A stretch of 64,000 nucleotides of DNA. Origin: Isurus oxyrinchus. Lineage: Eukaryota. The DNA lies in contig JANJGN010000926.1 in NCBI GenBank assembly GCA_026770705.1, positions 124,001-188,000 on the forward strand. Reading direction: 5' to 3'. Under the pieces are notes generated by a model. The model had not been told where the DNA came from. It was given only the letters and a program-made list of their open reading frames with translations, and did no database searches. Position numbers and translations under genes: made by a program. This document shows positions 24,250 to 64,000 of the stretch, one piece after another (the first letter of the stretch is position 1; each line of letters opens with the position of its first letter).

Positions 24250-24309
24250 CTGGGGAGAGAAATCTCAATATTTAACTCTGGATGGTTTGTGGATCCACTA
24301 GACTCAACT

Positions 24310-26765: not shown

Positions 26766-27166
26766 TGATTTCGAGTCCAGGAAAGAGTTGAAATATAAGC
26801 TGGTTTAAGGTGTGTGGGGGGGGGGGGGGGGGGAAGGAGAGAGAGAGAGAGACAGAGGTGCTTGTGTAGACAAACAAGCAGTGATAGAAGCAGATCATCA
26901 AAAGATGTCAGTAACAATGGTACCAAAGAACACATAGGTGTTAAAGTTAAAGTTGGTGATATTATCTAAACGAATGTGCTAATTAAGAATGGATGGTAGG
27001 GCACTCAAGGTACAGCTCTAGTGGGGGTGGGGGGAGCATAAAGGATTTTAAAATATTTAAAAATAATGGAAATAGGTGGGAAAAGAAAAATCTATAAAAT
27101 TTATAGGGAAAAAAAAGGGGGAAAAAAAGGGGGAAACAGAAAGGGGGTGGGGATGGGGGAGGGAGC

Positions 27167-29737
27167 TCACGACCTAAAGTTATTGAATTCAATATTCAGA
27201 CCGGAAGGCTGTAAGGTGCCTAGTCGGAAGATGAGGTGTTGTTCCTCCAGTTTGCGTTGGGCTTCACTGGAACAATGCAGTAAGCCAAGGACAGACATGT
27301 GGGCAAGAGAGCAGGGTGGAGTGTTAAAATGGCAAGCCACAGGGAGGTTTGGGTCATTCTTGCGGACAGACCGCAGGTGTTCTGCAAAGCGGTCGCCCAG
27401 TTTACGTTTGGTCTCTCCAATGTAGAGGAGACCACATTGGGAGCAACGAATGCAGTAGACTAAGTTGGGTGAAATGCAAGTGAAATGCTGCTTCACTTGA
27501 AAGGAATGTTTGGGCCCTTGGACGGTGAGGAGAGAGGAAGTGAAGGGGCAGGTGTTACATCTTTTGCGTGGGCATGGGGTGGTGCCATAGGAGGGGGTTG
27601 AGGAGTAGGGGGTGATGGAGGAGTGGACCAGGGTGTCCCGGAGGGAGCGATCTCTACGGAATGCCGATAAGGGGGGTGAAGGGAAGATGTGTTTGGTGGT
27701 GGCATCATGCTGGAGTTGGCGGAAATGGCGGAGGATGATCCTTTGAATGCGGAGGCTGGTGGGGTGATAAGTGAGGACAAGGGGGACCCTATCATGTTTC
27801 TGGGAGGGAGGAGAAGGCGTGAGGGCGGATGCGCGGGAGATGGGCCGGACACGGTTGAGGGCCCTGTCAACGACCGTGGGTGGAAAACCTCGGTTAAGGA
27901 AGAAGGAGGACATGTCAGAGGAACCGTTTTTGAAGGTAGCATCATCGGAACAGATGCGACGAAGGCGAAGGAACTGGGAGAATGGGATGGAGTCCTTACA
28001 GGAAGCGGGGTGTGAGGAGCTGTAGTCGAGGTAGCTGTGGGAGTCGGTGGGTTTGTAGTGGATATTGGTGGACAGTCTATCACCAGAGATTGAGACAGAG
28101 AGGTCAAGGAAGGGAAGGGAAGTGTCAGAGATGGACCACGTGAAAATGATGGAGGGGTGGAGATTGGAAGCAAAATTAATAAATTTTTCCAAGTCCCGAC
28201 GAGAGCATGAAGCAGCACCGAAGTAATCATCGATGTACCGGAGAAAAAGTTGTGGAAGGGGGCCGGGGTAGGACTGCAACAAGGAATGTTCCACATATCC
28301 CATAAAGAGACAGGCATAGCTGGGGCCCATGCGGGTACCCATAGCCACACCTTTTATTTGGAGAAAGTGAGAGGAGTTGAAGGAGAAATTGTTCAACGTG
28401 AGAACAAGTTCAGCCAGACGGAGGAGAGTAGTGGTGGATGGGGATTGTTCGGGCCTCTGTTCGAGGAAGAAGCTAAGGGCCCTCAGACCATCCTGGTGGG
28501 GGATGGAGGTGTAGAGGGATTGGACGTCCATGGTGAAGAGGAAGCGGTTGGAGCCAGGGAACTGGAAATTGTTGATGTGACGTAAGGTGTCAGAGGAATC
28601 ACGGATGTAGGTGGGAAGGGACTGGACAAGGGGAGAGAGAAGGGAGTCAAGATAACGAGAAATGAGTTCTGTGGGGCAGGAGCAAGCTGAGACGATCGGT
28701 CTACCAGGGCAGTTCTGTTTGTGGATTTTGGGTAGGAGATAGAAGCGGGCCGTCCGAGGTTGGGCGACTATCAGGTTGGAAGCTGTGGGAGGGAGATCCC
28801 CAGAGGAGATGAGGTCAGTGACAGTCCTGGAAACAATGGCTTGATGTTCAGTGGTGGGGTCATGGTCGAGGGAGAGGTAGGAGGAAGTGTCTGCGAGTTG
28901 ACGCTCAGCCTCCGCGAGGTAGAGGTCAGTGCGCCAGACAACAACAGCACCACCCTTGTCAGCGGGTTTGATGACAATGTCAGGGTTGGACCTGAGAGAA
29001 TGGAGTGCAGTAAGTTCAGAGAGAGACAGGTTAGAATGGGTGAGAGGAGTAGAGAAATTGAGACGACTAATGTCGCGCCGACAGTTCTCAATGAAAAGAT
29101 CAAGAGAAGGTAAGAATCCAGAGGGAGGGGTCCAGGTGGAGGGAGAATATTGGAGATGGGTAAAAGGATCTGTTGAACTGGGAGAGGACTCCTGCCCAAA
29201 GAAGTGAGCCCGGAGACGAAGACGGCGAAAGAAGAGTTCAGCATCATGCCGAGCCCGAAATTCATTGAGGTGAGGGCGTAAGGGTATGAAACTAAGTCCT
29301 TTGCTGAGCACTGAACGTTCAGCATCGGAGAGGGGAAGGTCAGGGGGTATAGTGAATACACGGCTGGGGCTGGGATTGGAAGATGGGGTGGGGACGGAGG
29401 GACAGGCTGGGGTGGAGGGTCCTAGATGGGTGTTGGTGTCGATGAGTTGTTGGAGCTTGCGTTCCTTAGCAGTTGAGAGAAAGAGAAAAAGTTTCTTGTT
29501 GAGGCGTCGGATGAGCCGAAGGATAAAATGAAACTGAGGGCACGCGCAGCTTTGAAAAAGGGTACGGCGGTGCTGCTGGAGGGAAAGGTCGAGTGTGTTC
29601 ATATGGCGGCGCATGGCACTGAGTGTGGATTTCAGAATGTGACGGGAACAGCAGTCTGAGAAACGTTTTATGTCCCGGAGATACCGGTAATCCTGGGTGG
29701 GTTCGAAAGATGAGGGGTGGAATTTCAGTTGAAATCC
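27167..29737 (-). CDS. Penelope-like reverse transcriptase + GIY-YIG endonuclease (5'-truncated; frame stays open to ATG 30079 through the inverted repeat)
   Basis: KPADKGGAVV, LPKIHK, GRPIVS, QIKGVAMGT, RYIDD, NLVYCIRC..C..LYIGET...RFAEH, GLN; no stops. Confidence 0.93.
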   Translation of the reverse strand, partial: GFQLKFHPSSFEPTQDYRYLRDIKRFSDCCSRHILKSTLSAMRRHMNTLDLSLQQHRRTLFQSCACPQFHFILRLIRRLNKKLFLFLSTAKERKLQQLIDTNTHLGPSTPACPSVPTPSSNPSPSRVFTIPPDLPLSDAERSVLSKGLSFIPLRPHLNEFRARHDAELFFRRLRLRAHFFGQESSPSSTDPFTHLQYSPSTWTPPSGFLPSLDLFIENCRRDISRLNFSTPLTHSNLSLSELTALHSLRSNPDIVIKPADKGGAVVVWRTDLYLAEAERQLADTSSYLSLDHDPTTEHQAIVSRTVTDLISSGDLPPTASNLIVAQPRTARFYLLPKIHKQNCPGRPIVSACSCPTELISRYLDSLLSPLVQSLPTYIRDSSDTLRHINNFQFPGSNRFLFTMDVQSLYTSIPHQDGLRALSFFLEQRPEQSPSTTTLLRLAELVLTLNNFSFNSSHFLQIKGVAMGTRMGPSYACLFMGYVEHSLLQSYPGPLPQLFLRYIDDYFGAASCSRRDLEKFINFASNLHPSIIFTWSISDTSLPFLDLSVSISGDRLSTNIHYKPTDSHSYLDYSSSHPASCKDSIPFSQFLRLRRICSDDATFKNGSSDMSSFFLNRGFPPTVVDRALNRVRPISRASALTPSPPSQKHDRVPLVLTYHPTSLRIQRIILRHFRQLQHDATTKHIFPSPPLSAFRRDRSLRDTLVHSSITPYSSTPSYGTTPCPRKRCNTCPFTSSLLTVQGPKHSFQVKQHFTCISPNLVYCIRCSQCGLLYIGETKRKLGDRFAEHLRSVRKNDPNLPVACHFNTPPCSLAHMSVLGLLHCSSEAQRKLEEQHLIFRLGTLQPSGLNIEFNNFRS

Positions 29738-31387
29738 ACGTAAACTGGGCGACCGCTTTGCAGAACACCTGCGGTCTGTCCGCAAGAATGACCCAAACCT
29801 CCCTGTGGCTTGCCATTTTAACACTCCACCCTGCTCTCTTGCCCACATGTCTGTCCTTGGCTTACTGCATTGTTCCAGTGAAGCCCAACGCAAACTGGAG
29901 GAACAACACCTCATCTTCCGACTAGGCACCTTACAGCCTTCCGGTCTGAATATTGAATTCAATAACTTTAGGTCGTGAGCTCCCTCCCCCATCCCCACCC
30001 CCTTTCTGTTTCCCCCTTTTTTTCCCCCTTTTTTTTCCCTATAAATTTTATAGATTTTTCTTTTCCCACCTATTTCCATTATTTTTAAATATTTTAAAAT
30101 CCTTTATGCTCCCCCCACCCCCACTAGAGCTGTACCTTGAGTGCCCTACCATCCATTCTTAATTAGCACATTCGTTTAGATAATATCACCAACTTTAACT
30201 TTAACACCTATGTGTTCTTTGGTACCATTGTTACTGACATCTTTTGATGATCTGCTTCTATCACTGCTTGTTTGTCTACACAAGCACCTCTGTCTCTCTC
30301 TCTCTCTCCTTCCCCCCCCCCCCCCCCCACACACCTTAAACCAGCTTATATTTCAACTCTTTCCTGGACTCGAAATCAAGTTCTGTCGAAGGGTCATGAG
30401 GACTCGAAACGTCAACTCTTTTCTCCTCCGCCGATGCTGCCAGACCTACTGAGTTTTTCCAGGTAATTCTGTTTTTGTTTTAAAGCTGTGAACAGATTGG
30501 CTTCAATCTCAGAGAGCTGCCAGGGAGAGGAATGGAGTTGGTAGCGAGGGAACAGAGTTTGGAGCGGGGAATGAAGACAATGGCTTCAGTCTTTCCAATA
30601 TTTAATTGGAGGGAATTTCTGCCCATCCAGTACTGGATGTCGGATAAGCAGCCTGATAATTTAGCAGCAGTGGAGGAGTCGAGAGAGGTGGTGGTGAGGT
30701 AGAGCTGGGCATCCTCAGTGGACAGGTGAAAACTAACACTGTTCAGATGATGCTGCAAAGCCATTGCAAGTGATTCTCTGGCTACGATGAGATGGATAAG
30801 AATGGAGCCAGGGGAGAGCAGTCCCACCCAGCTGGACGACAGTGGAGAGGGGTTGGAGGAAGATGGTGTGGTCGAGCGTGTCAAAGGCTGCAGACAGATC
30901 GAGAAGGAGGAGGAGGGAAAGTTGACCTTTGTCACAGTCACACAGGATGCCATTTGTGACCTTGATAAGAGCTGTTTCAGCACAGTGGCTGGGGTGGGAA
31001 CCTGATTGGAGGGATTCAAACATGGAGTTCCGGGAAAGATGGGAACGGATTCGGGAGATGGAAACACGTTCAAGGACTTTGCAGGTGAAAGAGAGGCTGG
31101 AGATGGGACGGGGGTTTACACGGACAGTGTGAGGGGTGGAAGGTGTAGTGGGGAGGAGACACTTCACTCAGGGGGGAGGTGTCATCACCCCTCAGCTCGG
31201 TTTACGTTACAGCTATGATGTGGATTCAATCACACACAATAAGCTCATGGATCTGGGAGCAGAAATAAACAAATCATTAAAAATAGTGACGCTGGTTAAC
31301 ACGGTCAAAAAACAAGCAAATCAAACACTATTATTTCCCATTGAGTGTTGGATGTGAATTGTTGAGTAATTATAACGCAGCACTTAC

Positions 31388-31774
31388 CAGAAACCTGAAG
31401 CTGGGTTACAGGATAGTAGCTGTATCTATTTCTGCTGTCAAATTCTATTCTGAAATAATAATATCCTGCATCTTCCCGTCTGATGTTGTTTATAATCAGG
31501 GAACAGTCGCCATCTTTCAGGTCTCCAGACAGCCGGGTCCGATGGCGGAACCGTGTTAACTCGCGATTGTGATCCTTGGAGTGAAAAGCTATTGTCCCTC
31601 TAGACCTTGTATTCCATGTATTCCATGTGTACCATTTCACGTACCAGATTCCGACACGTGCTCTCCCTACTACACGTGCTGGATATCTGTAGTTACATGG
31701 AATCTGTACACACGAACCTTCCTGCGCTGTCACCTCTCGTGGAGTTTCACCTTTCCACTCTTGTGACAGTCCAA
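31388..31774 (-). CDS. Gene C V-set exon V1 (divergent loops, essential Arg retained in YYYFRIE)
   Basis: 387 nt, phase 1/1, open, splice sites intact. Confidence 0.92.
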
Positions 31775-32399
31775 CTGGGGAGAGAAATATCAATATTTAA
31801 CTCTGGATGGTTTGTAGATCCACTAGACTCGATATCCACCCCCTCCTTCACGGAGTCAGAGTGGCTGCAATGTGGACCATCTACAGGACACACAGGGATC
31901 TCCCCAATGTTTCACAATGGATAGAAGAGAATCCTGGACACAAAAGCGGAAATATTCATGCTACATTGGCTCATGGTCCTCAGGACCCTGTTTGTGTACA
32001 AACCTGCTCTGCAACAGAACTGAAGTTGGGGAAAATCCATTTGGAATTCCATTGTCCAGGGCATTGGGTTAACTTGCTAAGTTTGTTTTAAATCTAACAT
32101 TTATTTTTGGTCTGTTGCCTTAAAGGAAGTGTAACTGGGAGTCAGGTTAATTAGGAATTTTAGGAGTTATTATAGCAGTCATTGTAGTCTTATGTATGTG
32201 CTTGAAATCTTTTATTTTGATGACAAATATTTTAATTTATTGTTTTAAATCTCTAAATGTCTTGATGGAGTTATTGCTTCTGAATTCAGTGCACAATCAT
32301 AACAAATACAAATTGCAAAATCATTATGATAGTGTGACCAAGTTTCTCTCATGGACTTGGTCTGCCTGGCACACATCACCTGCCAAGTGATAACACTGT

Positions 32400-33707
32400 T
32401 GTAATATGCCTTTCAGGGACAGCAGCATGACATCACTCGAGGGGAAGTGTGTCATGTGATTTTTAGGAACTGGAGTTGGCTTAAGTAAGTTCGATGTATA
32501 TTTGTGTGTGTTAGGCATAAGGTCTATCTTTAAGTTCAAGTTTAGCTTGTATTTCTGTATTTGGGTGTTTAGAAAAGGGGGAACTTGACTTAAAAAGAAG
32601 CCAGCATTCCATTGAGGTTTTATGTCTGTTGAAGGGAAGTCAAAACAAATACAAGGTGTAAGAAACTGTGCTGTTGCCTAGCAACAGTGATCCAGAGGGA
32701 AGGACCCACAGAGACCGAGAAAAACAGAAAAGTACTTTCAGTTCTGTTGAAAGGAGTTGCCAGGAGAAGCAGCAAAGGAGCGGGACAGATAGTCAGTCCC
32801 AAAGTAAAGATGAAGCCAAAACTATCGAGTGGAACAGGAGAAAGGGCCCAAGAAAACCTTCTAGTCAAATCTGGAAAAGGCCCTGTTAAGTGAAGTTAAG
32901 AGTGAGGAGCGGACAAAGGCTTCAAGCTTAAAGGAAGAAGCAGCAGGACACAGACCTAAAGCAAAATAGGCTTGTGAGAAGCCAGAAGATCCTAGGAGAC
33001 ACCACAGGTTGGTGACTCATTACTACGGCCATGTGAAGCCATGGTGTTCCATTGACACGGCTGAGCATTGGAGAGACAGGGCGTGGAAGGAAGGCTGAAT
33101 GCACGTGGCGATCCAGGGGGCAGGAACATGGGAAGGAGAGTTTGAAATAGTGAAAGTGGTCCCTTGTGGAAGGTGCCTGAGTGAAAGTGTCATGTTGGAG
33201 AAGATTCCAAAGTGTGTTCTTGGAGAGTGGAGATTGGAAACCCTCATATGGATATCTCAGTTCAGTGAGACTGGTTGGCTCACAGTGTAACAAGCGTCTG
33301 GGGACAGCTGAGGAGAGAACCATAGCATTTGTTTCAAGTGGGCTCTGTCACTTGGTTTAAGAGTGTGGTGTCCCTGACCACAGGTCGTCTATTGGTTTAC
33401 ATGGACTGTGTACTTAGTGTGAACATGATAGTATAAGATAGTTATTGTAACTTGTGTTATCTTTGTGAATCTGTATATATCTGCAAAGATATAGGTCTGG
33501 GTGAAGGAGTAATGTAATATAGTTTGTCTTTCCTAGTTTAATAAATGTTTTATTCTTTTGTTAGAAGTTCATCAGATGATTCCTGTGACTCTGTTCAGTA
33601 GCCGCACTCCACATTCCTAAATAAAAAATAAAAGTTAGGACCTATCAAGCTGAGTTCCACCCTGGGATCTGACTTGCCCAGTAGTAACATCAGCTGGGAT
33701 GATAACA
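32400..33707. mobile_element. Solo-LTR-like element (partial copy from ~63618 to window end)
   Basis: TGT...ACA ends, AATAAA near 3' end, no coding capacity. Confidence 0.4.
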
Positions 33708-34499
33708 CCATCCAGTCCAAGTTTCACTTTGGCCTGTGAGCAGAACACAGCTCACACAGTTTGGCTGCAGGTGTCTCCCAGCTTTCTATCTTTGTATATC
33801 TGTTCTCATGTCCCCGTTCTAAATAAATGAACCCACAATGTATTTACCCAATTCCGAATCAGTGGCTGGTGCCTTTATATCATTATAAAAACACAGCATG
33901 GTGATCAGCGGTGGCCAAACATTCTGGCAGCAAGATTCAGTACAGGTATGACGTGGTGAACAGCCTTAGATCGAGCTACATGACATGAGATGACCCTCGA
34001 CGCTTTGGTCAGACCACAACAGAGACAAAGCATCAGAGAGGGTTGAAATCGCAGTGTACTGACTGCTCAGGAAACCTTTGAAGACACAGTGACGGGAAAG
34101 AGCTCAAGTAAAGAGCTGGGGAGCAGACGGATCCCTCGTGGTGAGATTACAGCACACGGCCTGTAGGTCAGTGAGTGGGACAGTGCGTATCGCCAGGACC
34201 AGCAGCGGGTTAGCTCAGTCAGGGAAGGCGAATGACCAGGGTGTGGGCTGGATTGATAGTGAGCGAGGGAGAGTCAAACACACAAAAACCATTATAAAAA
34301 TCAGCCCAGAGAAGTTAGTGATTATAACGGGCGGCTTCGAGATTGCTGAACAGCAAATTGAATAAAAAACAAAGACTCCATTACTCCGTGGTGTGTTCCT
34401 GCCACAACCCGTCTTCGTGGGCGGAGCTTCGGAAAAGCACGTGAAAGGGGCTAAAGCGACACTCATCCCAGGTCCTGTAGGAGAAGGAAGGTCAAAGGA

Positions 34500-35250
34500 A
34501 TATTGTCAGAATGTCCACGAAATTCCCCAGTTTGAACTGGGATGTAGCTGACCGACTATCTGAATTCAGAATGTTTAAACAGCGTACAGAGCTCTGGTTT
34601 CCTGATTCAGCTGTGACTGAACCAGACGGGCAAGCCATGAAAATTCACCTCGCGATTGGGAATGAAGGTCTACACAGGCTGAACACGTCAGGATTAACAG
34701 CAGAAGAGCGAAAGGATCCCCAATAAATATGGACGACATTGGAAGACAGGTTCAGAATCAGGTGAAACTCCATATTCATCAACTAGAGTTTATGTCATTT
34801 CATCAGCCTACACAATCCATAGACCACTTCATCAGCCGATGTAGAGAAAAGGGTACGCACTGTGATTTCAAACACAGAGCCTGCAGACAGAGTTGTTGAG
34901 TTGGTGATCGCTTCCATTGCCATGGAAGCCTTCCAGAAAGATCTGCTAGATAAGACCAAAACCTATAGCATTGAAGAGCTACTCAAGGATGGACATAAAT
35001 ACGAAGTAATCCTCGCAGGTCAACGAAGCTTACAGGTCCTCAGTACAACATCAATTGTTGACACACTCACTAGAACATCCAAACCTAGTGAGACGTGTGG
35101 AAGGTGTGGCCTTCTGCAGGCACCAAGGAAATGCCCAGCTTTCCACCAATCCTGCAAGGCTTGTGGCAGAAAGGGCTATTGACAGCGGCAGGGCACTAGA
35201 GCAAAGGCTGATGCAGTTACAAAGAGCCGTGCGCTGATCCAAACAGACCC
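34500..35250 (+). mobile_element. Degenerate Gypsy-type gag with zinc-knuckle remnants
   Basis: FRMFKQRTELWF...IHLAIGNEG and CGRCG...CPAFHQSCKACGRKG; stops and frameshifts. Confidence 0.65.
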
Positions 35251-37073
35251 TACACAATGGGGAACCTTCAAGCAATAAGAATGACCATCCGCTATCCCAT
35301 CAGGAACATATACATGTGGTGATTGACAAACCAGGAAATGGCAATGATGTGCATGGCGAGACGAGGAGCGGTGATCGATATTCCACCTCTCACACATATC
35401 CTGACGTGGCTTGCCAATAAATTGTGGATTCTGGTCTTTATTGATCTTTCTGGGCACATCGAATAAACTGAAAATGTCCCATAGGGGTGGGATTTTCTGG
35501 CCCCACCCACTGCCAGGATTGTCCGGTCCGGCCGAAAGCTAATGGTTTTATGTCTGTCCCAGTCTCAGAAACTACCCCATTACCTCTGTTCATGACATAA
35601 CATTGAAATATGCAGAAAGTTTCAACAATATTGGCAGTTTCAAGGGAGCTGCATCATTACACCTGCAGGAGAATGCAAGTCTGTCAGACTCCTTGCATTC
35701 AAATAAATACAATCCAACTTTGTCACACTATCCTGTGCCTTAACTGGCCAATAATTTCTATGCCTTCCAGGTTCACTTTCTCTCTCTTCTAATTTTGGCT
35801 GTGCCTCTCCCTCTGCTGAACCTCCTCTCGGGATCCCATCCCCTGCCATGTTAGTTTAAAGCCCCCCCAATTGCATCAAGGGCAAAATGCCAATTGAAAC
35901 CAGGGACAACATCCAAGAATGACAATCCCACAGATCACTGTGAGCATTTAAAGACACCTCCAGACAAGGTTACCACCACAAGATCTGGGCGTCACAGCAG
36001 ATCACGTCAATGCGTTAGAGACTCAAATATTAGCAGATCTAAACACTTGTGTAATTGTCAAGAAATTTGAAAATGATACCAGAAACCTTTTGTTCCCTGT
36101 CCTTCTCAAAGATCCATCCCTGCAGCGGTAGCCTTAAGAGTTATTGATGTGGGGCTTAATTTATCAGATTGTAGAATGATCTGGAAGAGAAGGAAGCCAT
36201 TTGCCCATCGAACATGTGCTGGGCCTTTGAAAGATCTGTCCAATTATTCCCACTCTCACCTCTGCTCTCTCCTCCACAGCCCTGCAAAATGTTCCCTTCA
36301 AGTATTTATCCAGTTCCCCTTCTGAAAGTTCCTGTTGAATCTGCTTCCACCGCCCTTTCAGGCAGTGAGTCAATGGTCTCTCTCTGAGCTGCAAAGTGCT
36401 CAGATTCTGTGAAATTTAAACTCTGCAGCAGGTCAGAGACACTCATGATAACTCAGAATATTTGACAGTTTTACACACGGACAGCTTTGCCTCCCTTCTC
36501 TCTTTCAGTTATCTTGCTCCCTTATTGAAGTATCTAGCAAGGTGAGAATGGACAGGAAGTGTGACACTGAACAGCCTGTCTATTCTAGGAGCTGCTGTGT
36601 TGTCTTCATGGGAAATTCTGACTAAAATCAGCAATAGACACAAAATTTCAGGGCATTGTTATCCGAGTCCTAACATCAGGATAGACCTCAACCCCCAGGT
36701 TTTATCCCTGATTCTCTATTCAGCCGATCGCTCCCCTGTCACTGGCTGACCTACACTGACTCCCAGTCCAGCAATGACTCAAATTTCAAATTCTCATCAT
36801 CGATTTCTTACCCCACCATCCCCCCTCTACACTCCCGATCCCTGTAACCTCCTCCAACCCTAAAAACCTCTGAGATCTCTGCTCTCCTCCAATTCTGCTG
36901 TCAGGCAGGGAGTCAGTGTATGTCAGTGAGCACAGGGATGATGGGTGAATGGGACTTGGTGTGAGTTTGTACACTGGCTCACTGCTGAATCAGTTCCCAA
37001 TCAGAGCTCAATAAGAATGATCTTTTACAAAGACTATTCACCATAAATCTGTCTGAGCTGACGATGATATTAC

Positions 37074-37113
37074 CTTGGAGAAGTGACAGGAGGAAGTAAG
37101 ATTTCCCGATCAT
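37074..37113 (-). CDS. Gene C leader exon, coding part (MIGKSYFLLSLLQ); exon begins at 37155
   Basis: Same peptide as the gene A leader; flanks 36930-37400 match 17240-17720. Confidence 0.85.
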
Positions 37114-47456: not shown

Positions 47457-47705
47457 TCAGTTTTTCTGGAACCTGATCTGTGCGTATTCCGTGTCCTCGC
47501 TCCTGTGCACAGTCCTGTCACCGCTGGGCAGCTTTGAAAAGTTGATGTTGGCGTAGAGAAGCTCGTCGGTATTGTCGGGGTTCCCATGTCCAACATCACC
47601 TCCCACTGGACCTTCAGAGAGATCCCGGGGAGCTGGGGTCTCCCCCTCACTAGTTGTGTCTCTGGTTGTTTCCCGGGGCTCAGTAATCAGCACGTTCTGT
47701 TCATC
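47457..47705 (-). CDS. Gene B terminal exon with ITIM (LLYANI) and ITSM-like motif (TEYAQI)
   Basis: 249 nt, phase 0; DELLYANINF...TEYAQIRFQKN* matches the two-tyrosine tail layout of inhibitory Siglecs. Confidence 0.92.
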   Translation of the reverse strand, partial: DEQNVLITEPRETTRDTTSEGETPAPRDLSEGPVGGDVGHGNPDNTDELLYANINFSKLPSGDRTVHRSEDTEYAQIRFQKN

Positions 47706-48428
47706 CTACAGAGAAATGGAAACAGAAGACATCCTCACATCATTTACTGGCACTGATAGGGTTAAATTATTGTGCAGCCTCGTTAGTGTCAGTCGTGTCT
47801 CAGTGGGTTTAAGCCTTTTTTTCCCTCTCTTTCTCTGTCTCTCTTTCTCTCTCGCTTTCTCTCTCTGTGTATAATTTAATCTCTATCACACTCCAACAGT
47901 GCAGCACTCCCTCAGTACTGACCCTCTGACAGTGCAGCACTCCCTCAATACTGACCCTCTGACAGTGCAGCACTCCCTCAGTACTGACCCTCTGACAGTC
48001 CAGCACTCCCTCAGTAATGACCCTCTGACAGTACAGCACTCCCTCAATACTGACCCTCTGTCAGTGCAGCACTCCCTCAGTACTGACCCTCTGACAGTGC
48101 AGCACTCCCTCAGTACTGACCCTCTGACAGTGCAGCACTCCCTCAGTACTGACCCTCTGACAGTGCAGCACTCCCTCAGTACTGACCCTCTGACAGGGCA
48201 GCACTCCCTCACTACTGACATCAGGTGCCTTGTCATTATTGTGTTCAGGTTTCTGGTCAAAGAGCGAGTGATGGAGGGTGACAGAGGCTGGGAGCGAGAG
48301 ACAGTGCTGTCCACTGAGCCATTGCTTCACAGGGCGATATCTGTGTGTAACCCGGCTGATAATCTGGTATACGTGTTGTCTACACACTGAGATAGAAGCT
48401 TTGGAGTGAGTGTAAACAGCTCCTGTAC

Positions 48429-48510
48429 CTGGTGCTTCACAGAGAGTGACCTGGGGGTCAATGCATTGTCACTGGTCCCTGAAACTCTCTCCTGCGTTGC
48501 TGTCTTTCTC
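48429..48510 (-). CDS. Gene B cytoplasmic exon 1 (KRKTATQERVSGTSDNALTPRSLSVKHQ)
   Basis: 82 nt, phase 2/0, AG/GT intact. Confidence 0.85.
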
Positions 48511-49386: not shown

Positions 49387-49483
49387 TTTCTCACACAGAT
49401 GAAGATGAAGATTCCAGCCAGGAAAACACTCAACATGATCCCAGCCGTGAACAATCCTACTGTCCATTTACTGGAGTCTCTAC
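49387..49483 (-). CDS. Gene B transmembrane exon (uncharged, same as gene A)
   Basis: 97 nt, phase 1/2, matches 4572-4668. Confidence 0.9.
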
Positions 49484-50872: not shown

Positions 50873-51166
50873 CTTTGACCCACAGATAAACCTTGAACAT
50901 GGCTTCCCCGTGTGGGTTTTGAACCGAGCAGGATGCAATCACTCCCCCCTCATCCTGGGGTCTCATCAGGGTGAGGGAACCAGTCACCAGATGCCCATCT
51001 CTGACCTGCCACGACACAAAACCTCCGTGTGTTTGGTTACCACTGATGTTGGCACTGGGCAGGTGCCAGGTGAGGTCTCCGGGTGGGTTGGAGTTGGCCA
51101 CACAGACGCAGGTGACCCCCTCTGATCTCCGAGTGCACTCCGACTGCTGGGAAATCTCCGGCTTAT
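50873..51166 (-). CDS. Gene B membrane-proximal MAG-D5-like C2 exon
   Basis: 294 nt, phase 1/1, open. Confidence 0.88.
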
Positions 51167-53230: not shown

Positions 53231-53512
53231 ATTCCACAGTGATGGTTATGAACCCCTTCACTGCTCCATGTTCATTCTCTGCCACACACTGATAGTCTCC
53301 AGTGTCCCTGGATGTAACGTGAGGAATCACCAACCACAGCTCATTGTTGGAACTTGTTCTGTTCATTGGGACATTAAGATGTCGCCACGTCAGGTTAGAA
53401 GCTGGGAAGCTCTCGACAGAGCAGATTATCACTGCAGAATTCCCCTCAATTATATTGATTGATGAAGCGTTAATCATATCAAGAGAAGTAATTGAGAGAT
53501 TCTGTGGTCCAT
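53231..53512 (-). CDS. Gene B third Ig C2 exon (single copy)
   Basis: 282 nt, phase 1/1, DGPQNLSITS...DTGDYQCVAENEHG. Confidence 0.9.
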
Positions 53513-56500
53513 CTAAAAATATATAAAGATTTTAATGTGAGCAAACACAGTGCACAGCAAAACTTCCTGTATCATCTCGCTGTAGCTGATGCCTGTGTGC
53601 ATTTCTAGGCACCTTCTCTCAAGATAAGTTCCTATGTCACATTTACATTGGGCACTGCCTATGTAAACTGTCACACTGCAGGAGCATTCTCCCACCAGAG
53701 ACCCTGCCCATCCAGATTTAAAGAAACTCCCTTTCACATCCTCAGGATGTCCCCAAGGGCTTGACAGGCAATGAATTATATTTGATTGATGGAGCACTGA
53801 GGGGTAAATCTACAATTCTCTGTTCAGGAGGTTGCTCATCCAATTCAGGGTCTTGTTGATCCGGAGTTTACCTTCCTTCAACACAGAATCAGAGCTGATA
53901 CCGAGACTCCAGTGCAGCACTGAGAGANNNNNNNNNNNNNNNNNNNNNNNNNNNNNNNNNNNNNNNNNNNNNNNNNNNNNNNNNNNNNNNNNNNNNNNNN
54001 NNNNNNNNNNNNNNNNNNNNNNNNNNNNNNNNNNNNNNNNNNNNNNNNNNNNNNNNNNNNNNNNNNNNNNNNNNNNNNNNNNNNNNNNNNNNNNNNNNNN
54101 NNNNNNNNNNNNNNNNNNNNNNNNNNNNNNNNNNNNNNNNNNNNNNNNNNNNNNNNNNNNNNNNNNNNNNNNNNNNNNNNNNNNNNNNNNNNNNNNNNNN
54201 NNNNNNNNATGTGCGTGCTTACGTGTGTGTGTGTGTGTGTGTGTGTGCGTGCGTGTGTGTGTTGTGTGTGTGCGCGTGTGCGTGTGAATGTGCGTGCTTA
54301 CATGTGTGTGTGTGTCTGTTGATGTGTGTCTGGTCTGTGTAACCTGTAAACCTAACCCTTCCACACTGATGGTCACGAACACCCCCCACTACCAACAAAT
54401 TTATCTCAGTAAGGAACATGGCACTGCCAACCTCGTCAATACCATCTTCTAAACAGGGGATTGGGTAGGAATCTGGTTTTATTGCTGCATTAACCTTTCT
54501 GTAATCTATGCAGAATCTGGTTGGAAATGAAATACCTGCTCCTTTTTACCTCCCTCCCTCCGATGGTATCGTTTTAACATATTGATGTGTCACAGCCGAT
54601 TCTTTATTCTACAATCTGGGGTGTCTATCAAATAATTTACTTGACCAACCCTCCTAATTACCTTGTAGGGACCACTGAACCGCGCTTTCAGAGGCTCCCC
54701 CTGCCAAGGCAATGATACTAACACGTCATCCCCCTGGTTGTGATGTTCGGGTCACAGCTTGCCTGTCTGCCCCATTCCTTCATCTCTGTTTGAGAAACTA
54801 TAAGATGTTCTTGTGCCACTTTGGAGGCTCCCATGAGCCGTTCCTGAAACATGGACACATCATCTGAAATAGAGGATTCATCCCTCTGTCCGGAATATCT
54901 TTCTTTGATGTATTTCAGACAGCCTCTTATCTCGTGTCCATAAGTTATTCCAAAAAGACTAAAACCTGCCGATTCAGTTGGTGAATCTCATGTGGGAAAT
55001 ACAAGAAAATCCAGTCCTTTGTCCCAGTCATGGGGAGATCATGACAATAGCTTCAATCATTGTTTTGAGGGTTTGTTGGTCCCTCTCTAAAGATCCCTGT
55101 GTCTATGGATGATATGCTGTGGACTTTAACTGTTTTATACCCAAATTACGCATTATGTTCGGAATATTTTAAGACATAGAGATGGAACCTTGATCTGACT
55201 GGATCTCCAGCAGTAATCCATAATGGGTAAAAAATTGGGTTAACTTCCCTATTACTACTTTAGCTGTAATTGTTCCTAAAGGGATGGTCTCTGGAAATCG
55301 AGTTGTCATATCCATCATAGTGAGGCCATACTGGAGTCCGGCTTTCATTTTCGATAATGTTCTAATACAGTCCACTAATGCTCGTATCCAATGGTAACGG
55401 ACAATTAACTCACTGGAGGAGGGGAATCCACAAATATCCCCATCCTCAATGAAGGGGGAGCCCAGCACATCAGGGCAAAAGATAAGGCTGAAGCATTTGC
55501 TACAACAATTATCCATTTCTGTCTGGCGTAAAAATAAATCAGGAAATGGTGCTCAACCAGGGCTTACAAAAGAAATTAGGGATAGTATTAGATCCAGAGA
55601 GGAGACATAAAATTGCCAGGGGAAGCAGCAATGCTGAGGATTGGGAGCAGTTTAGAATTCAGCAAAAGTGGACAAAAAGATTGATCAAGAAGGGGAAAAT
55701 GGAACATGGGAGTAAACTTGCAGGGAACGTAAAAACCGACTGTAAAAGCTTCTATAAATATGTGAAGAGAGAAAGATTAGCAGTGACCGATGTAGGTTCC
55801 TTGCAGTCAGAAATGGGGGAAATTCTAATGAGAAACAAAGAAATGGCAGAAGAACTGAACATATATTTTGGTTCTGTCTTCACAAAAGAGGACACAAATA
55901 ATTTCCCAGGAATGTTAGGGAACCAAGTGTCTAGTGAGAGGGAGGAATTGAAGATAATCAGGATTAGTTTTAAAAAATGGAGCTGGAGAAATTAATGGGT
56001 TAAAGGTTGAACAGTCCCCAGGGCCTGAAAATCTACATCCCAGAGACTAACGGAAGTGACCCTGGAAATATTGGAAGCACTGGTGGTCATCCTCCAAAAT
56101 TCTATAGGCTCTGGAGCAGTTCCTATAGATTGGAGGGTGGCAATTGTAACTCCACTATTTAAAATAGAAGGGAGAGAAAAAAACTGGGAATTACAGATCA
56201 GTTAGTCTAACATGGGGAAAACGCTAGAGCCTATTATATAAGGTGTGCTAACGGAACGCTTGGAAAGCATTAATGGGATTAGACAAAGTCAGCATGGGTT
56301 AATGAAAGGAAAATCATGCTTAACTAATCTACTGGAGATTTTGAGGATGTAACTTGTGGAATAGATAAGGGATAACCAGTGGATGTGGTGTTTTTAGATT
56401 TCAAGAAGGCTTTTGATAAGGTCCCACATAAGAGGCTAGTGGGCAACATTAAAGCCCATGGGATTGGGGGTAATTTACTGGCATGGATTGAGAATTGGGT

Positions 56501-57940
56501 CGACAGACAGGAAACAGAGGGTCAGAATAAATTAGTCTTCATCTGAGTGGCAGGCGGTGACTATTGGTGTACCACAGGGATCCGTGCTTGGGACCTAACT
56601 ATTCACGATATATTTAAATGACTTGGGTGAGGGAGCCAAGTGCAATATTTCCAGGTTTTCTGATGACATAACGCTGGGTAAGGGTGTGAGCTGTGAGGAA
56701 GATGCAAAGAGGCTTCAAGGCGATTTAGACAAGTTGTGTGTGTGGGCAAACACATGGCAGATGATGTGGATGAATGTGACATTGTAGGCTTTGGTGTGAA
56801 AAACAGAAAGGCAGAGTATTATTTAAATGGTGATATATTGCGAAATGTGGATGTACAAAGGGATCTGGGTGTCCTTGTGCACTAGCCAATGAAAGTAAAC
56901 AGGCAGGTGCAGCAAGTAATTCGGAAGGCAAATGGTATGTTGGCCTTCATTGCAAGAGGATTTGTGTTCAGGAGTAGGGATGTCTTACTGCAGTTATACA
57001 AGGTCTTGGTGAGACTGCACATGGGGTACTACGTGCCGTTTTGGTCTCCCTCCCTAAAAAAGGATAGACTTGCCATCGAGAGAGCGCAGAGAAGGTTCTC
57101 TAGGCTGATACCAGGGGCGGCAGGACTGTCGTATGAGGAGAATTGGTACGACTGGGTCTATATTCACTAGAGTTTAGAAGAATGAGAGGAGACCTGAATA
57201 AACGTAAGAAATTCTAACAGAGATAGACAGACTGGATGGAGGGAGGATGCATCCCCTGGTTGGGGAGTCTAAAACCAAGGGCGACAATCTCAGGATACAG
57301 GGCAGGCCATTTTGGACTGAGATAGGGAAACATTTCTTCACTCAGAGGGTGGTCAATCTGTGGAATTCTCCATCACAGAGGCTGTGGAGGCCGGGTCACT
57401 GAGTGTATTCAAGAAAGAAACTGATAAATATTTTGATATTAGGGGCATCAAAAGGTACGGAGAGAAAGCGGGAATAAGGCTTTGAGATAGAGGGTCAGCC
57501 TTGATCATATTGAATGGCGGAGAAGGCTTGAAGGGCTGAATGTCCTAATCCTGCTCCTAGTTTCCATGTACCTAGGTATCTATAGAACTATCTCTCTCCG
57601 TGTTCTATTCTCATGTGACCTTGAGTAACTGATGATAAATACTATCTATTTACATTGTTAATATTAAACTTTTATACTACATCTCCCCCAAAATCTTTGA
57701 CATCAATGAAGACAATATTTATATTATCCTATTTGTCTTTTAAGTTCAACCTTGGCCCCCTCTGCCCTATCAGGTAGGCATAAACAATCCCGAGGCTCAA
57801 TACAGGAAGAGCTCTCCCTGGTCAATATCACTAATAAAAAAGGACCTGTTTTGTCTTCAACCCAGTGATGTTTGTGGGATCTTGCTCTGCACATTGTATC
57901 CTATTACAGCTAATATAGAATCAAGGGTGTCTGTACTTAC

Positions 57941-58237
57941 CTTGCACAGTTAGTACGAGGGTCCGCTCCGATGAAACAGATGGATATCTCACTCTGCAGC
58001 TGAGAGTGTGTCCGTGGTGTTTGAGTGATGGGATCAGGGTCAGAACAGAAGTATAGGTCAGAGTGACACCATGCTGAGTTACAGTGTTTGAGACTGATCC
58101 AGGTACGTCAGTGGGAGTGTCCCAGGTTAAGACAGGTGCTGCTGTTCCATTGCACGTTGTGTTGAAGGTGCAGCTCACATCCACACGCTTTCCTGCAATA
58201 ATTTCAGCAGGGAATATCGTGGGTGTATCTGTGAAAT
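57941..58237 (-). CDS. Gene B Siglec domain-2-type C2 exon
   Basis: 297 nt, phase 1/1, open. Confidence 0.92.
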
Positions 58238-59050
58238 CTAACAGACAGAGAATGGATCCTTTTAGAGAAATATAACATGAAGCATCAGTTCAAATAGAAA
58301 GCACAGTCCCACAAGAGAAAGCAATTTTACAAGGATGATATCAGATCTGAGAGGATACAATGATCAGGAGAGAATTTCCTATTTTCAGACTTAGTGGAAT
58401 TTCTGTCTCTCAGATGAATTCACTTCCACTTTGAGACAATTGAATTGACAATCCCGGGTGAGGGCGGGGGAGCAGCTCACAGTTCCTGACACACTGGCTT
58501 GTTACTTTCTCCAAAATCTGCCAGATTTAAATTCTATCCTGTCGCCAGCAGGAGAGAATCCATTTGAACCAATCACTGAACCGGCATTTAAAACAGATGA
58601 TCAGGTTATTGATCACATTGCTGTTTCTGGGAGCTTCCTGTGCACAAATTGGCTGCTGTGTTTCCCATATTACAACAAGGGCTACATTTCAACAATTATT
58701 TCAATGGTTGTGAATCCATTTGCGACGTCCAGAGGTGGTGAAAGGTGCTATAGAAATGCAAATCTTTCTTTTGTTGATATGTAAGAATTTTAAACAGGAT
58801 TAGGGAGATTGATGTAAGTGGATAACCTGATAACATTGATGGACACAGTCAATACATTTAATCATTGTTATTAAAGTGAGTATTAGAGGTTGTTTTCGGA
58901 CTGAACTGGAAGCTATTAGCAGGTTATTGAGAATCAGACAGTGTGTTATAATAAGCTGTGTTTTGTGTTAATATGTAAATGTCACAGTTTGTGTTAATTC
59001 CCATTGAGTGTTGAATGTGAATTGTTGAGTAATTATAACATAGCACTTAC

Positions 59051-59419
59051 CAGAAACGTGAAGCTGGGTTACAGGGTAATAGTTATGGCTCGGACCATTG
59101 TCAAATTCTATTCTGAAAAAATAAGGTCCTGCATCTTCCCGTCTGATGTTGTTTATAATCAGGGAACAGTCGCCATCTTTCAGGTCTCCTGACAGCCGGG
59201 TCCGATGGTGGAACCGTGGTAACTCGTGACTGTGATCCTTGGAGTGAAAGGCAATGGGAGCCCAGGGAATCTGTTCCTCATTATTAAACCAGACTCCACC
59301 ACGCGGTTGGTTTTCCAGACACGTTGGATAACTGTAATGACATGGAATCTGTACACACGAACCTTCCTGTGCTGTCACCTCTCGTGGACTGTCACCTTTC
59401 CACTCTTGTGAGGGTTCAG
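59051..59419 (-). CDS. Gene B V-set exon (essential Arg retained)
   Basis: 369 nt, phase 1/1, GSCVQIPC / DCSLII / YFFRIE. Confidence 0.93.
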
Positions 59420-62400
59420 CTGGGGAGAGAAATCTCAATATTGAACTCTGGATGGTTTGTGGATCCACTAGACTCAAAATTTACTGATGAGGCTGAATTG
59501 GGGGGATGGTCAATACTGAGGAAAATGGCAACAAATTAATTTGGCAGGAAGAATAGAAAAACAGGATATTATTTAAATGGAGACAGGATGCAGAATGCAG
59601 TACAGAGGGATCTGGGTGTCCTTGTACATGAATCACAGAAAGTCAGCATTCAGGAACACCACGGAATGAGGAAGGCAAGTGGAATGTTGGCCTTTATTGC
59701 AAAGGGATGGAGTATAAAAGGAGGGAAGTCTTGCAACAGCTGCACAGGGTGAGATTGTATCAGGAGCAGTGTGTACAGTTCTGGTCTCCTTACTTAGGGA
59801 GGGATAGACTTGCATTGAAGGCAGTTCAGAGAAGCTTCACTGGGCTGATTCCTGGGATTAAAGGGTTTGACCTGTGAGGAAATGTTGAGCAGGTTGGGCC
59901 TGTATCCATTGGAGTTTAGAAGAATGAGGGGTGAGCTTATTGAAACATATCCGATTCCGAGGGGGCTTGACAGGGTGGATGCTGGGAGGATGTTTCCCCC
60001 TCGTGGGGGAATCTAGAACCAGGGAGCACAGTTTCGGAATGAGGGCTCTCCCATTTAAGACTGAGATGAGGAGGAATTTCCTCTCTCAGAGGGGCGCTAG
60101 CCTGTGGAATTCTCTTCCCCAGAGAGCAGTGGAGGCTGGGCCATTGAATAGACTCAAGGCTGAGTGAGGCAGGTTTTTGATCGACAAGGGAGTCAAGGGT
60201 TTGGGGAACAGGCAGGAAAATGGAGTTAAGGCCACAACCAGATCAGTGAGAGCAGGCTCGAGGGGCCGAATGGCCTGCTCCTGTCCCTATTTCTTATGTT
60301 CCTACATTCTTACCTTCTTAAAATATTAAAGCTGCAGAATAAACATGCAAGTGACTGACCCGCTCGACCCACCTTCCATCAGGGGCTGGAGGAGGTTACA
60401 CAGATAGGGAGGTTTGTGGGGGCTGTAGGAGGTAACAGAGATAGGGAGGGCTGTAGATACTGGAGGTGGTTACGCAGATAGGGAGGGTGGTAGGACCTGG
60501 AGGAGGTTGCGGAGATAGGGAGGGCTGTAGGGATTTGAGGAGTTTATGGAGATGGGGAGCGTGTAGGGACTGGAGGAGGCTGCAAGGGCAGAGAGGGTTT
60601 TAGGGGCAGGAGGAATTTACAGGGATAGGAAGAGTTGTAGGGGCTGGACGGATTGCAGAGGTAGGGAGGGTTGGAATGGCTGGTGGAGGTTTCAGAGGTA
60701 GGGAAGGGTTGCAGGGACTGGAGGGGTTTACAGAGATGGGGGAGTTTTTGGGGCAGGATGGGGTTACAGAGATAGGGAGGGTTGTAGGGGCAGGACGATG
60801 TTACATAGATATGGAGTGTGGCTGGGGCTGAGGGAGGCTACAGAGATAGGGAGGGTTATAATGGCTGGAGGAGGTTACAGAGATAAAGGAAACTCTTAGG
60901 GACTGGAGGAGGTTACAGAGATAGGGAGGGTTGTAGTGGGCTGGAGGAGGTTACAGAAATATGAAGGGTTGTAAGAGATGGACCAGCTTACAGAGATAGG
61001 GAGAGGTATTTGGTCTGGAGAAGGTTGCAGAGATAGGGGAGGTTGTTAGGACTGGAGGAGGGTACAAATATCGCGAGGGTTATCGGGGCTTGAGGAGGTT
61101 AAAGAGATAGGGAGGGGTGTTGGGTCCGGAGGAGTTTGCAGTGATAGGAATGGTTTTCGGGATTGGAAGAGAGTACTGAGATAGGAGGGTTGTAGGGACT
61201 GGAGGAGACTCCTGAGATAGGGAGGGTTGTAGGGACTGGAGGAGGCTCCTGAGATAGGGAGGGTTGTAGGGACTGGAGGAGGCTCCTGAGATAGAGAGGG
61301 TTGTAGGGACTGGAGGAGGCTCCTGAGATAGGGAATGTTGCCGTGGATGAAGATAAAGGAGGAGATTACTGTAATAGGGAGGAAAAATATTCAAAAATTT
61401 GGACATTGAGACTTTGCTTGACCAGGAGCCAGTCTCGGTCATCGAGCAGAGCGGGTGATAAGGGAACGGGACTTGGTGTGAGTAAGGACGTGGTCAGCAG
61501 TTTTGGATGGCCTCAAGTTTATGGAGTGTAGAGCGTGTGTTGGAACAGTCGAGTCTGGAGGTAATGAAGGCGTGGATGAGGATTTCAGCAGCAGATGAGC
61601 TGAGACAGGGTGATGTCGTGCGATGTTACGGAGGTAGAAATAGACGGTGTTAGTGAGGGCGCAGATATGAGGCCGGAAGCTCATCTCAGGATCAAATGGG
61701 ACAACAAAGCTGTGAACAGATTGGCTTCAATCTCAGAGAGCTGTCAGGGAGAGGAATGGAGTTGGTAGCGAGGGAACAGAGTTTGGAGCGGGGAATGAAG
61801 GCAATGGCTTCAGTCTTTCCAATATTTAATTGGAGGGAATTTCTGCCCATCCAGTACTGGATGTCGGATAAGCAGCCTGATAATTTAGCAGCAGTGGAGG
61901 AGTCGAGAGAGGTGGTGGTGAGGTAGAGCTGGGCATCCTCAGTGGACAGGTGAAAACTAACACTGTTCAGATAATGCTGCAAAGTCATTGCAAGTGATTC
62001 TCTGGCTACGATGAGATGGATAAGAATGGAGCCAGGGGAGAGCAGTCCCACCCAGCTGGACGACAGTGGACAGGTGTTGGAGGAGGATGGTGTGGTCGAG
62101 CGTGTCAAAGGCTGCAGACAGATCGAGAAGGACGAGGAGGGAAAGTTGACCTTTGTCACAGTCACACAGGATGCCATTTGTGACCTTGATAAGAGCTGTT
62201 TCAGCACAGTGGCTGGGGTGGGAACCTGATTGGAGGGATTCAAACATGGAGTTCCGGGAAAGATGGAACCGGATTCGGGAGATGGAAACACGTTCAAGGA
62301 CTTTGGAGGGGATAGAGAGGCTGGAGATGGGACAGGGGTTTACACGGACAGTGTGAGGGGTGGAAGGTGTAGTGGGGAGGAGACTCTTCACTCAGGGGGG

Positions 62401-62611
62401 AGGTGTCATCACCCCTCAGCTCGGTTTACGTTACAGCTATGATGTGGATTCAATCACACACAATAAGCTCATGGATCTGGGAGCAGAAATAGGCAAATCA
62501 TTAAAAATAGTGACGCTGGTTAACACGACCAAAAAACAAGCAAATCAAACACTATTATTTCCCATTGAGTGTTGGATGTGAATTGTTGAGTAATTATAAC
62601 ACAGCACTTAC

Positions 62612-62989
62612 CAGAAACGTGAAGCTGGGTTACAGGGTAATAGTTATGGCTCGGACGATTGCCAAATTTTATCGTGAAAAGATAATGTCCTGCATCTTCC
62701 CGTCTGATGTTGTTTATAATCAGGGAACAGTCACCATCTTTCAGGTCTCCAGACAGCCAGGTCCGATGGTGGAACTGTGATAACTCGCGACTGTGACCCT
62801 TGGAGTGAAAGGCTATAGACCATTTAGACCATTTGTTCCGTATGTATCTTCTCATTTTCCAGATTCAGACCTGTGGTTTCTTTACCAAATCTGATGGATA
62901 ACTGTAATGACATGGTATCTGTACACACGAACCTTCCTGCGCTGTCACCTCTCGTGGAGTATCACCTTTCCACTCTTGTGACAATCCAA
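62612..62989 (-). pseudogene. Gene B upstream pseudo-V exon (in-frame TGA at 62865-62867; essential Arg replaced, HYLFTIK)
   Basis: 378 nt with intact splice sites, positional equivalent of gene C V1. Confidence 0.88.
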
Positions 62990-64000
62990 CTGGGGAGAGA
63001 AATATCAATATTTAACTCTGGATGTTTTGTTGATTCACTAAGCTCGATATCCACCCCCTCCATCACTCGGGCACAGTGGCTGCAGTGTGGACCATCTACA
63101 GGACACACAATGAACTCCACAAGGTATCAAACCAGATGGAAGAGAATCCTGGACACAAAAGCGGAAAAGTTCATTCTACATTGGTTCATGGTCCTCAGGA
63201 CCCTGTTTGTGCAGAAGCCTGTTCTCCAACAGAACTGAAGTTGGGGACAATGCATTTGGAATTCCACTGTCCGGGGCATTGGGTTAACTTGCTGAGTTTG
63301 TTTTAAATCTAACATCTATTTTTGGTCTGTTGCCTTAAAGGGAGTGTAACTGGGAGTCAGGTTAATTAGGAATTTTAGGAGTTATTATAGCAGTCATTGT
63401 AGTCTTATGTATGTGCTTAAAATCTTTTATTTTGATGACAAATATTTTAATTTATTTTTTTAACTCTCTAAAGGTCTTGGTGTAATTATTGCTTCTGAAT
63501 TCAGTGCACACATCTCATAATAAATACAAATTGCAAAATCATGATGATCGTGTGACCACCTTTCTCTCATGGACTTGGTCTGCCTGGCACACATCACCTG
63601 CCAAGTGATAACACTGTTGTAAACTGCCTTTCAGGGACAGCAGCATGACATCACTCGAGGGGAAGTGTGTCATGTGATTTTTAGGAACTGGTGTTCGCTT
63701 AAGTAAGTTCTATGTGTATTTGTGTGTGTTAGGCAAAAGGTCTATCTTCAAGTTCAAGTTTAGTTTGTATTTCTGTATTTGGGTGTTGAGAAAAGGGGGA
63801 ACTTGAGTTAAAAAGAAGCCAGCATTCCATTGAGGTTTAATGACTGTTGAAGGGAAGTCAAAACAAATACAAGGTGTAAGAAACTGTGCTGTTGCCTAGC
63901 AACAGTGATCCAGAGGGAAGGACCCACAGAGAGAGAGAAAAACAGAAAAGTACTTTCAGTTCAGTTGAAAGGAGTTGCCAGGAGACGCAGCAAAGGAGCG

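What the first reader, a model, noticed from the sequence alone, without database searches (positions are those of the whole stretch)
57941..64000. Gene B is a mosaic: 5' block shared with activating gene C, 3' block shared with gene A, switch at the D2 donor
57941-64000 aligns with 22771-32782 (V-D2 intron, CR1 and L2 remnants, upstream V). Sequence past the D2 donor (57940 downward) aligns with gene A (15001 downward), not with C. The 3' part of B's D2 exon has C-type variants (TLSCRV; cttgcacag) while its 5' part has A-type ones (KRV, TFN). A homogenised tract ending at the end of the ligand-binding domains is the pattern reported for SIGLEC5/14 gene conversion.
Basis: partly seen in the sequence, partly recalled or inferred. 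Interest (0 to 1): 0.75.

Follow-up and report, generated by a model that had tools for sequence, protein, structure and literature searches.

The report
Head-swapping in shark paired Siglec genes
In a shark cluster of sugar-recognising immune receptor genes, gene B has a front half like its predicted activating neighbour and a back half like its predicted inhibitory neighbour, likely because such genes swap halves at a shared, almost identical exon, as human SIGLEC5 and SIGLEC14 do.

Summary
The pattern is real. In this Siglec cluster (closest relatives are lamniform sharks), B's 5' block matches C (Arg-transmembrane tail) at 94-98%, and B's stalk matches A (ITIM-like tail) at 98.6%. The nearest-neighbour switch is significant (MaxChi permutation p=5e-5).

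1. The switch cannot be pinned to the D2 donor. All three genes are 97-98% alike across D2, A joins at ~58,370, and C leaves at 57,909, a junction also seen in another organism.
2. The 'A-type' and 'C-type' D2 residues in B are the family consensus (p=0.14 within the exon).
3. The ligand-binding domains are not homogenised: V1 is only 84% alike, and B's V1 has a stop codon.

Across sharks D2 groups by lineage, not by tail type (AU p=0.0004), while the activating tail is conserved. That is concerted evolution of a paired-receptor family. B is most likely a D2 recombinant (0.55). An old two-V inhibitory gene exchanging with both neighbours remains possible (0.33). No read spans the junction, so an assembly chimera is not excluded (0.1). 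It is a known mechanism; 8 literature searches found no description of it in sharks.

The parts
61374..64000 (-). B 5' block, distal part, homologous to C 26,282-26,627 and 30,482-32,782 (upstream flank 95.2%, intron 97-98%)
62612..62989 (-). B V1 exon: in-frame TGA at codon 41, lacks the F-strand Arg; only 83.9% to C V1
60381..61334 (.). 37-bp tandem array (25.8 copies) in the B V1-V2 intron; C has 7.6 copies at 25,985-26,264
59540..60380 (-). B V1-V2 intron, proximal repeat-derived part, 98.0% to C
59051..59419 (-). B V2 exon, intact Siglec-type V-set (YFFRIE), 95.9% to C V2 and 92.4% to A V
58381..59050 (-). B V2-D2 intron, C-like part (B-C 93-96%, B-A 71-85% where alignable)
57909..58380 (-). 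Three-way shared zone (about 140 bp of intron, D2 exon, 32 bp past the donor); the switch lies in here; longest B-C identical run is 233 bp (58,165-57,933)
57941..58237 (-). B D2 exon (C2-set); A-B 97.6%, B-C 98.3%, A-C 97.3%
54341..57940 (-). B D2-D3 intron, 98.6% to A 11,403-15,001, absent from C
53928..54208 (.). 281-N gap between the B intron and B D3 (no N from 54,209 to 64,000)
53231..53512 (-). B D3 exon; upstream flank nearer A D3a (93-95%), 3' part and downstream flank 98.6% to A D3b
50873..51166 (-). B D5 exon, 98.0% to A (B has no D4 exon)
49387..49483 (-). B transmembrane exon, uncharged, 97 of 97 identical to A; close A-B likeness ends at about 49,343
47457..48510 (-). B cytoplasmic exons (48,510-48,429 and 47,705-47,457) with LLYANI and TEYAQI motifs; 90% and 84% to A
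21038..37113 (-). Gene C: signal 37,113-37,074; V1 31,774-31,388; V2 24,249-23,881; D2 23,067-22,771; D3 remnant about 22,447-22,295; Arg-transmembrane exon 21,177-21,038; open frame of 410 aa
2065..17428 (-). Gene A: signal, one V (16,526-16,158), D2 (15,298-15,002), D3a, D3b, D4 (274 nt, frameshift), D5, TM, two cytoplasmic exons; open for 663 aa only without D4

Best explanation
B joins a C-like two-V head to an A-like inhibitory-type stalk, and most likely arose by unequal crossover (or a long conversion tract) within the D2 exon zone, which is nearly identical across this shark Siglec family. Shown: the change of nearest neighbour, the three-way identity of D2, and the lineage-wise grouping of D2 against a conserved activating tail. 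Inferred: D2 is the stretch where misaligned paralogues pair, so heads and tails are reshuffled there again and again; B's head came from a gene of the activating type; later smaller exchanges and deletions gave B a different V1 exon, one D3 instead of two and no D4. Predicted: B makes an inhibitory receptor with a V2 domain close to that of activating C only if its stop-containing V1 exon is skipped (the frame from V2 to the stop is open for 555 aa), so B and C would act as a loose receptor pair.
For: One exchange explains three genes (A = head 1 + tail i, C = head 2 + tail a, B = head 2 + tail i); the alternatives need two. The topology flips from (B,C) in V2 to (A,B) in the D3 remnant, p=5e-5. 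The long introns give similar young ages on both sides: B-C 46 of 2,036 (2.3%), B-A 51 of 3,598 (1.4%). C's tail is old, so C is not a recent truncated copy of B: the exon reading ILGIRAVIF is in white shark and two catsharks, in 10 of 11 C-terminal ends printed, and the departure point 57,909 recurs in run X9. In white shark the GPSH loop of the V next to D2 is in 9 of 11 activating-type and 2 of 12 inhibitory-type gene models (Fisher p=0.003); B and C have it, A does not. Of the 8 relatives' V domains nearest to B's V2, 6 sit on activating-type proteins and 2 on proteins with neither tail type. Discordant genes occur both ways in white shark (P0013, P0117; reciprocal P0128). D2 of activating genes is rejected as one clade (AU p=0.0004), and the 15 lamniform rows form one side of a branch (support 83, not starred).
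Against: The B-type layout is old: whale shark P0029, epaulette shark P0028 and catshark P0003/P0007 carry EPS- or GPS-start, GPSH-loop V domains on inhibitory-type stalks, and the EPS start marks a second V rather than a tail type (EPS 4 of 10 vs 0 of 10 in white shark, two-sided p=0.087). The two intron ages differ (p=0.025), and B-C divergence is uneven (2% to 16%), so one event does not explain everything. The A-like block ends after the TM exon, so it could itself be a bounded conversion tract. White-shark genes are related copies, so the Fisher test overstates independence, and the set came from a search seeded with B's V2. No laid contig spans the junction. B's promoter and signal exon lie outside the window.
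Confidence: 0.55

Rival explanations
1. B is an old two-V inhibitory gene and the hub, not the product: its head was homogenised with activating C by conversion (either direction, as in SIGLEC5/14 and 11/16), and its stalk was separately copied to or from A.
For: Two-V, GPSH-loop inhibitory-type genes exist in whale, epaulette, cat and white sharks. At 58,370 it is A that changes (A-B and A-C both rise from about 72% to 93-98%), and at 57,909 it is C that leaves. The A-like block is bounded at both ends (58,370 to 49,343). Ages differ on the two sides (p=0.025).
Against: Needs at least two recent long exchanges. B's V2 is nearer to white-shark activating-type V2 (95-97%) than to the two-V inhibitory-type genes (93% and 90%). 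None of 12 white-shark inhibitory-type models joins a GPSH-type V to a D3 stalk.
Confidence: 0.33
2. B is an assembly chimera: the assembler crossed from an activating gene into an inhibitory one through the multi-copy D2 exon.
For: A stretch of about 160 bp of D2 (58,165-58,006) is identical in A, B and C. The window has six N runs. The best public run holds only 0.49 of the junction's words, and no listed contig spans it.
Against: 54,209-64,000 is gap-free. The assembly resolved a 950-bp tandem array and 746-bp inverted copies at 99.87%, which suggests long-range data (inference). B has its own substitutions on both sides, so neither half is a copy of A or C. The same head-stalk combination occurs in gene models of other sharks.
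Confidence: 0.1

Closest known systems
Primate paired Siglecs SIGLEC5/SIGLEC14 and SIGLEC11/SIGLEC16
   Same: Neighbouring Siglec genes with related heads and opposite tail types; shared sequence ends near the second domain type; exchanged region groups by lineage, not by function (PMC4042635 and PMC5701461, passages read).
   Different: Not one pair but a family of 20 or more. The most uniform exon is D2, not V. V1 is 84% alike and dead in B, against 97-99% over the converted 2 kb of SIGLEC11/16. Genes carry one to several V exons.
SIGLEC14/5 fusion allele
   Same: 5' part of an activating gene on the 3' part of an inhibitory gene, by recombination in shared sequence (PMC4042635, passages). 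C lies upstream of A in tandem, the order that would give such a fusion.
   Different: B coexists with intact C and A, so a prior duplication or another donor is needed. B's protein differs from A's in its head, whereas the human fusion encodes unchanged Siglec-5. Deletion and polymorphism were not shown.
Shark 'SIGLEC12/13/14-like, CD33-like, MAG-like' RefSeq models (Carcharodon, Cetorhinus, Scyliorhinus and others)
   Same: B V2 is up to 97%, D2 up to 99% and C's TM exon up to 93% identical to white-shark proteins.
   Different: Automatic names only; none of the 12 white-shark inhibitory-type models examined has B's exact combination.

Membership tests
Siglec family | V-set domain of Siglec type followed by C2-set domains | tested here: met
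   Pfam V-set and Ig_CD22 on three V exons, C2-set_2 on D2; top PDB hits Siglec-5, -7, -8, CD33, MAG at E 2e-15 to 2e-13
Siglec family | F-strand arginine for sialic acid | tested here: met
   YFFRIE aligns to Siglec-5 YFFRVE; present in A V, B V2, C V1 and C V2, absent in B V1. That this Arg is the essential one is recalled.
Siglec family | Sialic-acid binding | not testable with these tools
   needs a glycan array
CD33-related Siglecs (mammalian subfamily) | Orthology or synteny with the mammalian CD33-related cluster | not tested
   no cross-vertebrate tree or synteny was made; hits to MAG score nearly as well
SIGLEC5/14-type paired receptors | Opposite signalling modules | tested here: met
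   By sequence only: B has LLYANI and TEYAQI with an uncharged TM; C has an Arg in the TM and a short tail
SIGLEC5/14-type paired receptors | Near-identical ligand-binding domains | tested here: not met
   V1 83.9% with a stop in B; V2 95.9% DNA and 93% protein
SIGLEC5/14-type paired receptors | Exchanged region groups by species, tail by function | tested here: met
   D2 tree of 29 rows rejects an activating clade (p-AU 0.0004); activating TM exon conserved between lamniforms and catsharks
SIGLEC5/14-type paired receptors | Tract ends at the end of domain 2 | tested here: inconclusive
   C's homology ends 32 bp past the donor, but B's switch lies anywhere in 58,370-57,909
SIGLEC5/14-type paired receptors | Activating member binds an ITAM adaptor (DAP12) | not testable with these tools
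   inferred from the TM Arg only
SIGLEC14/5-type fusion allele | Activating gene's promoter on the inhibitory gene, with deletion between, polymorphic | not testable with these tools
   B's 5' end is beyond 64,000, no genome is held, and contigs cannot phase the junction

The most novel reading that the evidence does not exclude
Sharks keep an old array of activating and inhibitory Siglecs in which the D2 exon works as a standing recombination hub that shuffles V-domain heads between the two tail types, and B is a SIGLEC14/5-like fusion that is still polymorphic in its species.
Probability: 0.35. Interest if true: 0.65.

Novelty: new member of a known kind. Interest (0 to 1): 0.42.

Why it matters
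Paired Siglecs kept alike by recombination are described mainly from primates. A conserved Arg-transmembrane tail shared by lamniform sharks and catsharks, with lineage-wise homogenisation of D2, means the same activating/inhibitory design runs in cartilaginous fish, by deep ancestry or by convergence. It gives an independent test of the idea that activating Siglecs are counter-traps against sialic-acid mimicry. The mosaic gene B alone is an expected product of such a cluster; the family-level pattern is the more interesting part.

Tried and rejected
Within-exon mosaic in D2: rejected (p=0.14; B equals the consensus). Majority contigs in runs X5 and X7 over D2 list only 2 and 6 differences from B, and the listed ones are B-private sites.

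C as a recent truncated duplicate of B: rejected, because its tail and junction are in other species.

B and A as one collapsed or allelic copy: unlikely; they differ in V number and exon content and at 51 sites spread along the intron.

EPS start as a marker of activating genes: looked so in white shark (4 of 10 vs 0 of 10) but fails in other sharks.

Placing the breakpoint by likelihood: depends on the assumed rates.

Reads: 24 runs were listed, 20 hold part of the stretch and none half of its words. Four were laid, all as contigs, and no listed piece bridges 58,390-57,909. Of 40 listed differences (70 more not shown), 14 equal both A and C, 5 A only, 11 C only and 10 neither. This shows B has private letters but neither proves nor excludes B elsewhere. 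Contig depth was higher on D2 than on its flanks (X7: 112 vs 6-12), a weak hint of many copies only.

The V-domain tree (57 rows) was mostly unresolved near B. Earlier findings: none by place or words. GENECONV and RDP were not available; a MaxChi permutation was used instead.
Full report
SETTING. The window holds three tandem genes on the minus strand, in transcription order B, C, A (exon map). Their V exons hit Pfam V-set and Ig_CD22, D2 hits C2-set_2, and the best solved relatives of B's V2 are human Siglec-5, -7, -8, CD33 and MAG. A protein search with B's V2 returned 115 hits of 130 candidates; all but one carry names, and these are sharks and rays. The closest are white shark (up to 97%) and basking shark (up to 92%), so the animal is inferred to be a lamniform shark. 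No genome is held for the window. A has one V, a long stalk and Tyr motifs. C has two V, D2, a D3 remnant and a transmembrane exon with Arg. B has two V, D2, D3, D5, a TM exon identical to A's, and LLYANI/TEYAQI motifs. C is open for 410 aa. B is open for 555 aa from V2 but has a TGA in V1. A is open only without its 274-nt D4.

THE OBSERVATION. B 57,909-64,000 aligns to C in three blocks at 93.5-97.1%, and B's D2-D3 intron matches A at 98.6% and is absent from C. Where all three align, V2 and the V2-D2 intron group B with C (96.2% and 92.6%, against 92.2% and 84.7% for A), D2 is a star (97.3-98.3%), and the D3 remnant groups B with A (99.3% against 95.9%). The order of the 145 A-only and C-only sites is far from random (MaxChi 25.2, p=5e-5). 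So the change of nearest neighbour is real.

WHERE THE SWITCH IS. There are two edges, not one. At about 58,370 A starts to match both B and C; at 57,909 C stops matching either. MaxChi peaks at both (23.6 and 25.2). The very close A-B tract does not reach 58,380-58,238 (10 of 143 differences against 51 of 3,598, p=8e-5), so it most likely begins inside the D2 exon or at its donor. The donor is a fair point estimate: B and C share a 233-bp identical run ending at 57,933. But the exon has only ten variable sites, their order is not significant (p=0.14), and a simple likelihood moves between the donor and 58,210-58,170 with the assumed rates.

IS THE HEAD HOMOGENISED? Only in patches: B-C differ by 4.8% upstream of V1, 12.3% in the V1 acceptor flank, 16.1% in the V1 exon, 2.0-3.0% in the V1-V2 intron, 4.1% in V2 and 6.3% in the V2-D2 intron. 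The converted SIGLEC11/16 region is 97-99% identical (PMC5701461, passages). B's V1 is as far from C's V1 as from A's V (83-84%) and has lost its Arg.

THE FAMILY. White shark has at least 12 inhibitory-type and 11 activating-type gene models after I merged isoforms by hand from the accessions; 6 further models with another or no tail were left out of the counts. The activating TM exon is conserved in white shark and two catsharks. In a D2 tree of 29 rows, chosen by me from four species plus the window, activating genes are rejected as a clade (p-AU 0.0004) and lamniform rows group together with modest support. That is the signature of concerted evolution between opposite receptors. The loop at the end of the V next to D2 follows tail type in white shark (9 of 11 against 2 of 12), with exceptions both ways, and B is such an exception. 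Against a simple story, whale, epaulette and catshark models already join this V type to inhibitory-type stalks, so B's layout is old in sharks even if this copy is young.

MECHANISM. The most economical history is one ectopic exchange in the D2 zone between a C-like and an A-like gene, of similar age to the split of the long introns (1.4-2.3%), followed by smaller exchanges and repeat-mediated deletions (one D3 and D4 lost). In form this is closer to the SIGLEC14/5 fusion than to the short 5' conversions (PMC4042635, passages), but fusion and long conversion cannot be told apart while B's 5' end lies outside the window. I give this 0.55, an old hub gene exchanging with both neighbours 0.33, and an assembly chimera 0.1. 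The junction lies in gap-free sequence, but a 281-N gap separates it from B's D3 and tail, and no laid contig spans it. Adaptor binding, sialic-acid binding and V1 skipping are all inferred.

LITERATURE. Eight searches of the open-access library were run. 'siglec + shark + gene conversion' gave 0 papers. The listings for cartilaginous, elasmobranch and chondrichthyan terms showed no study of shark Siglec pairs; the whale shark genome paper mentions Siglecs once (PMC8455134, passage). Passages only were read from PMC6288428, PMC4042635, PMC5701461, PMC8455134, PMC13262535 and PMC13358205; supplements were not read, and subscription papers, including much Siglec-evolution work, are not in this library. 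Absence is therefore weak evidence.

VERDICT. A real but expected recombinant in a fast-shuffling receptor cluster; the precise breakpoint and direction claimed are not established. The family-wide paired-Siglec pattern in sharks is the part worth following. New member of a known kind; interest 0.42.

Noticed in passing
window 26,627-30,482: Young retroelement in C's V1-V2 intron, absent in B: intact 970-codon frame with RVT_1 and a weak GIY-YIG hit (Penelope-like, class recalled), 746-bp inverted copies 99.87% alike, 14-bp target duplication.
   Followed up: partly
window 9-1,540 and 2,934-4,463: 93% duplication giving A a second first-cytoplasmic exon (about 927-846); white-shark relatives have two cytoplasmic modules in tandem, the second like B's.
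   Followed up: partly
window 6,802-7,075: A's D4 exon is 274 nt and shifts the frame; B lacks D4, with the gap falling between related repeat copies.
   Followed up: partly
window 17,249-17,708 and 36,934-37,392: A and C share the signal-peptide exon (40 of 40 identical) and flanks at 94%, although their V flanks are only about 87% alike: A is a patchwork too.
   Followed up: no
window 22,295-22,480: C's D3 remnant has a diverged 5' part with a short deletion and a 3' part 96% like A and B, with an intact donor but no evident acceptor.
   Followed up: partly
window 23,067-22,771 and 24,249-23,881: C has gained extra cysteines in V2 (KCD) and D2 (KCV); the D2 one recurs in 3 of 17 lamniform D2 domains.
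   Followed up: no
proteins P0001, P0002, P0003, P0142, P0052: Other shark models carry 4-7 V domains or 9-11 D3 repeats in tandem, so domain number varies widely; some models may be merged genes.
   Followed up: no
window N runs at 10,011, 10,882, 11,187, 42,204, 43,314 and 53,928: Most of the six N runs border CA/GT-rich repeats, and A and B have gaps at the homologous place; whether they are assembly gaps or masks is unknown.
   Followed up: no
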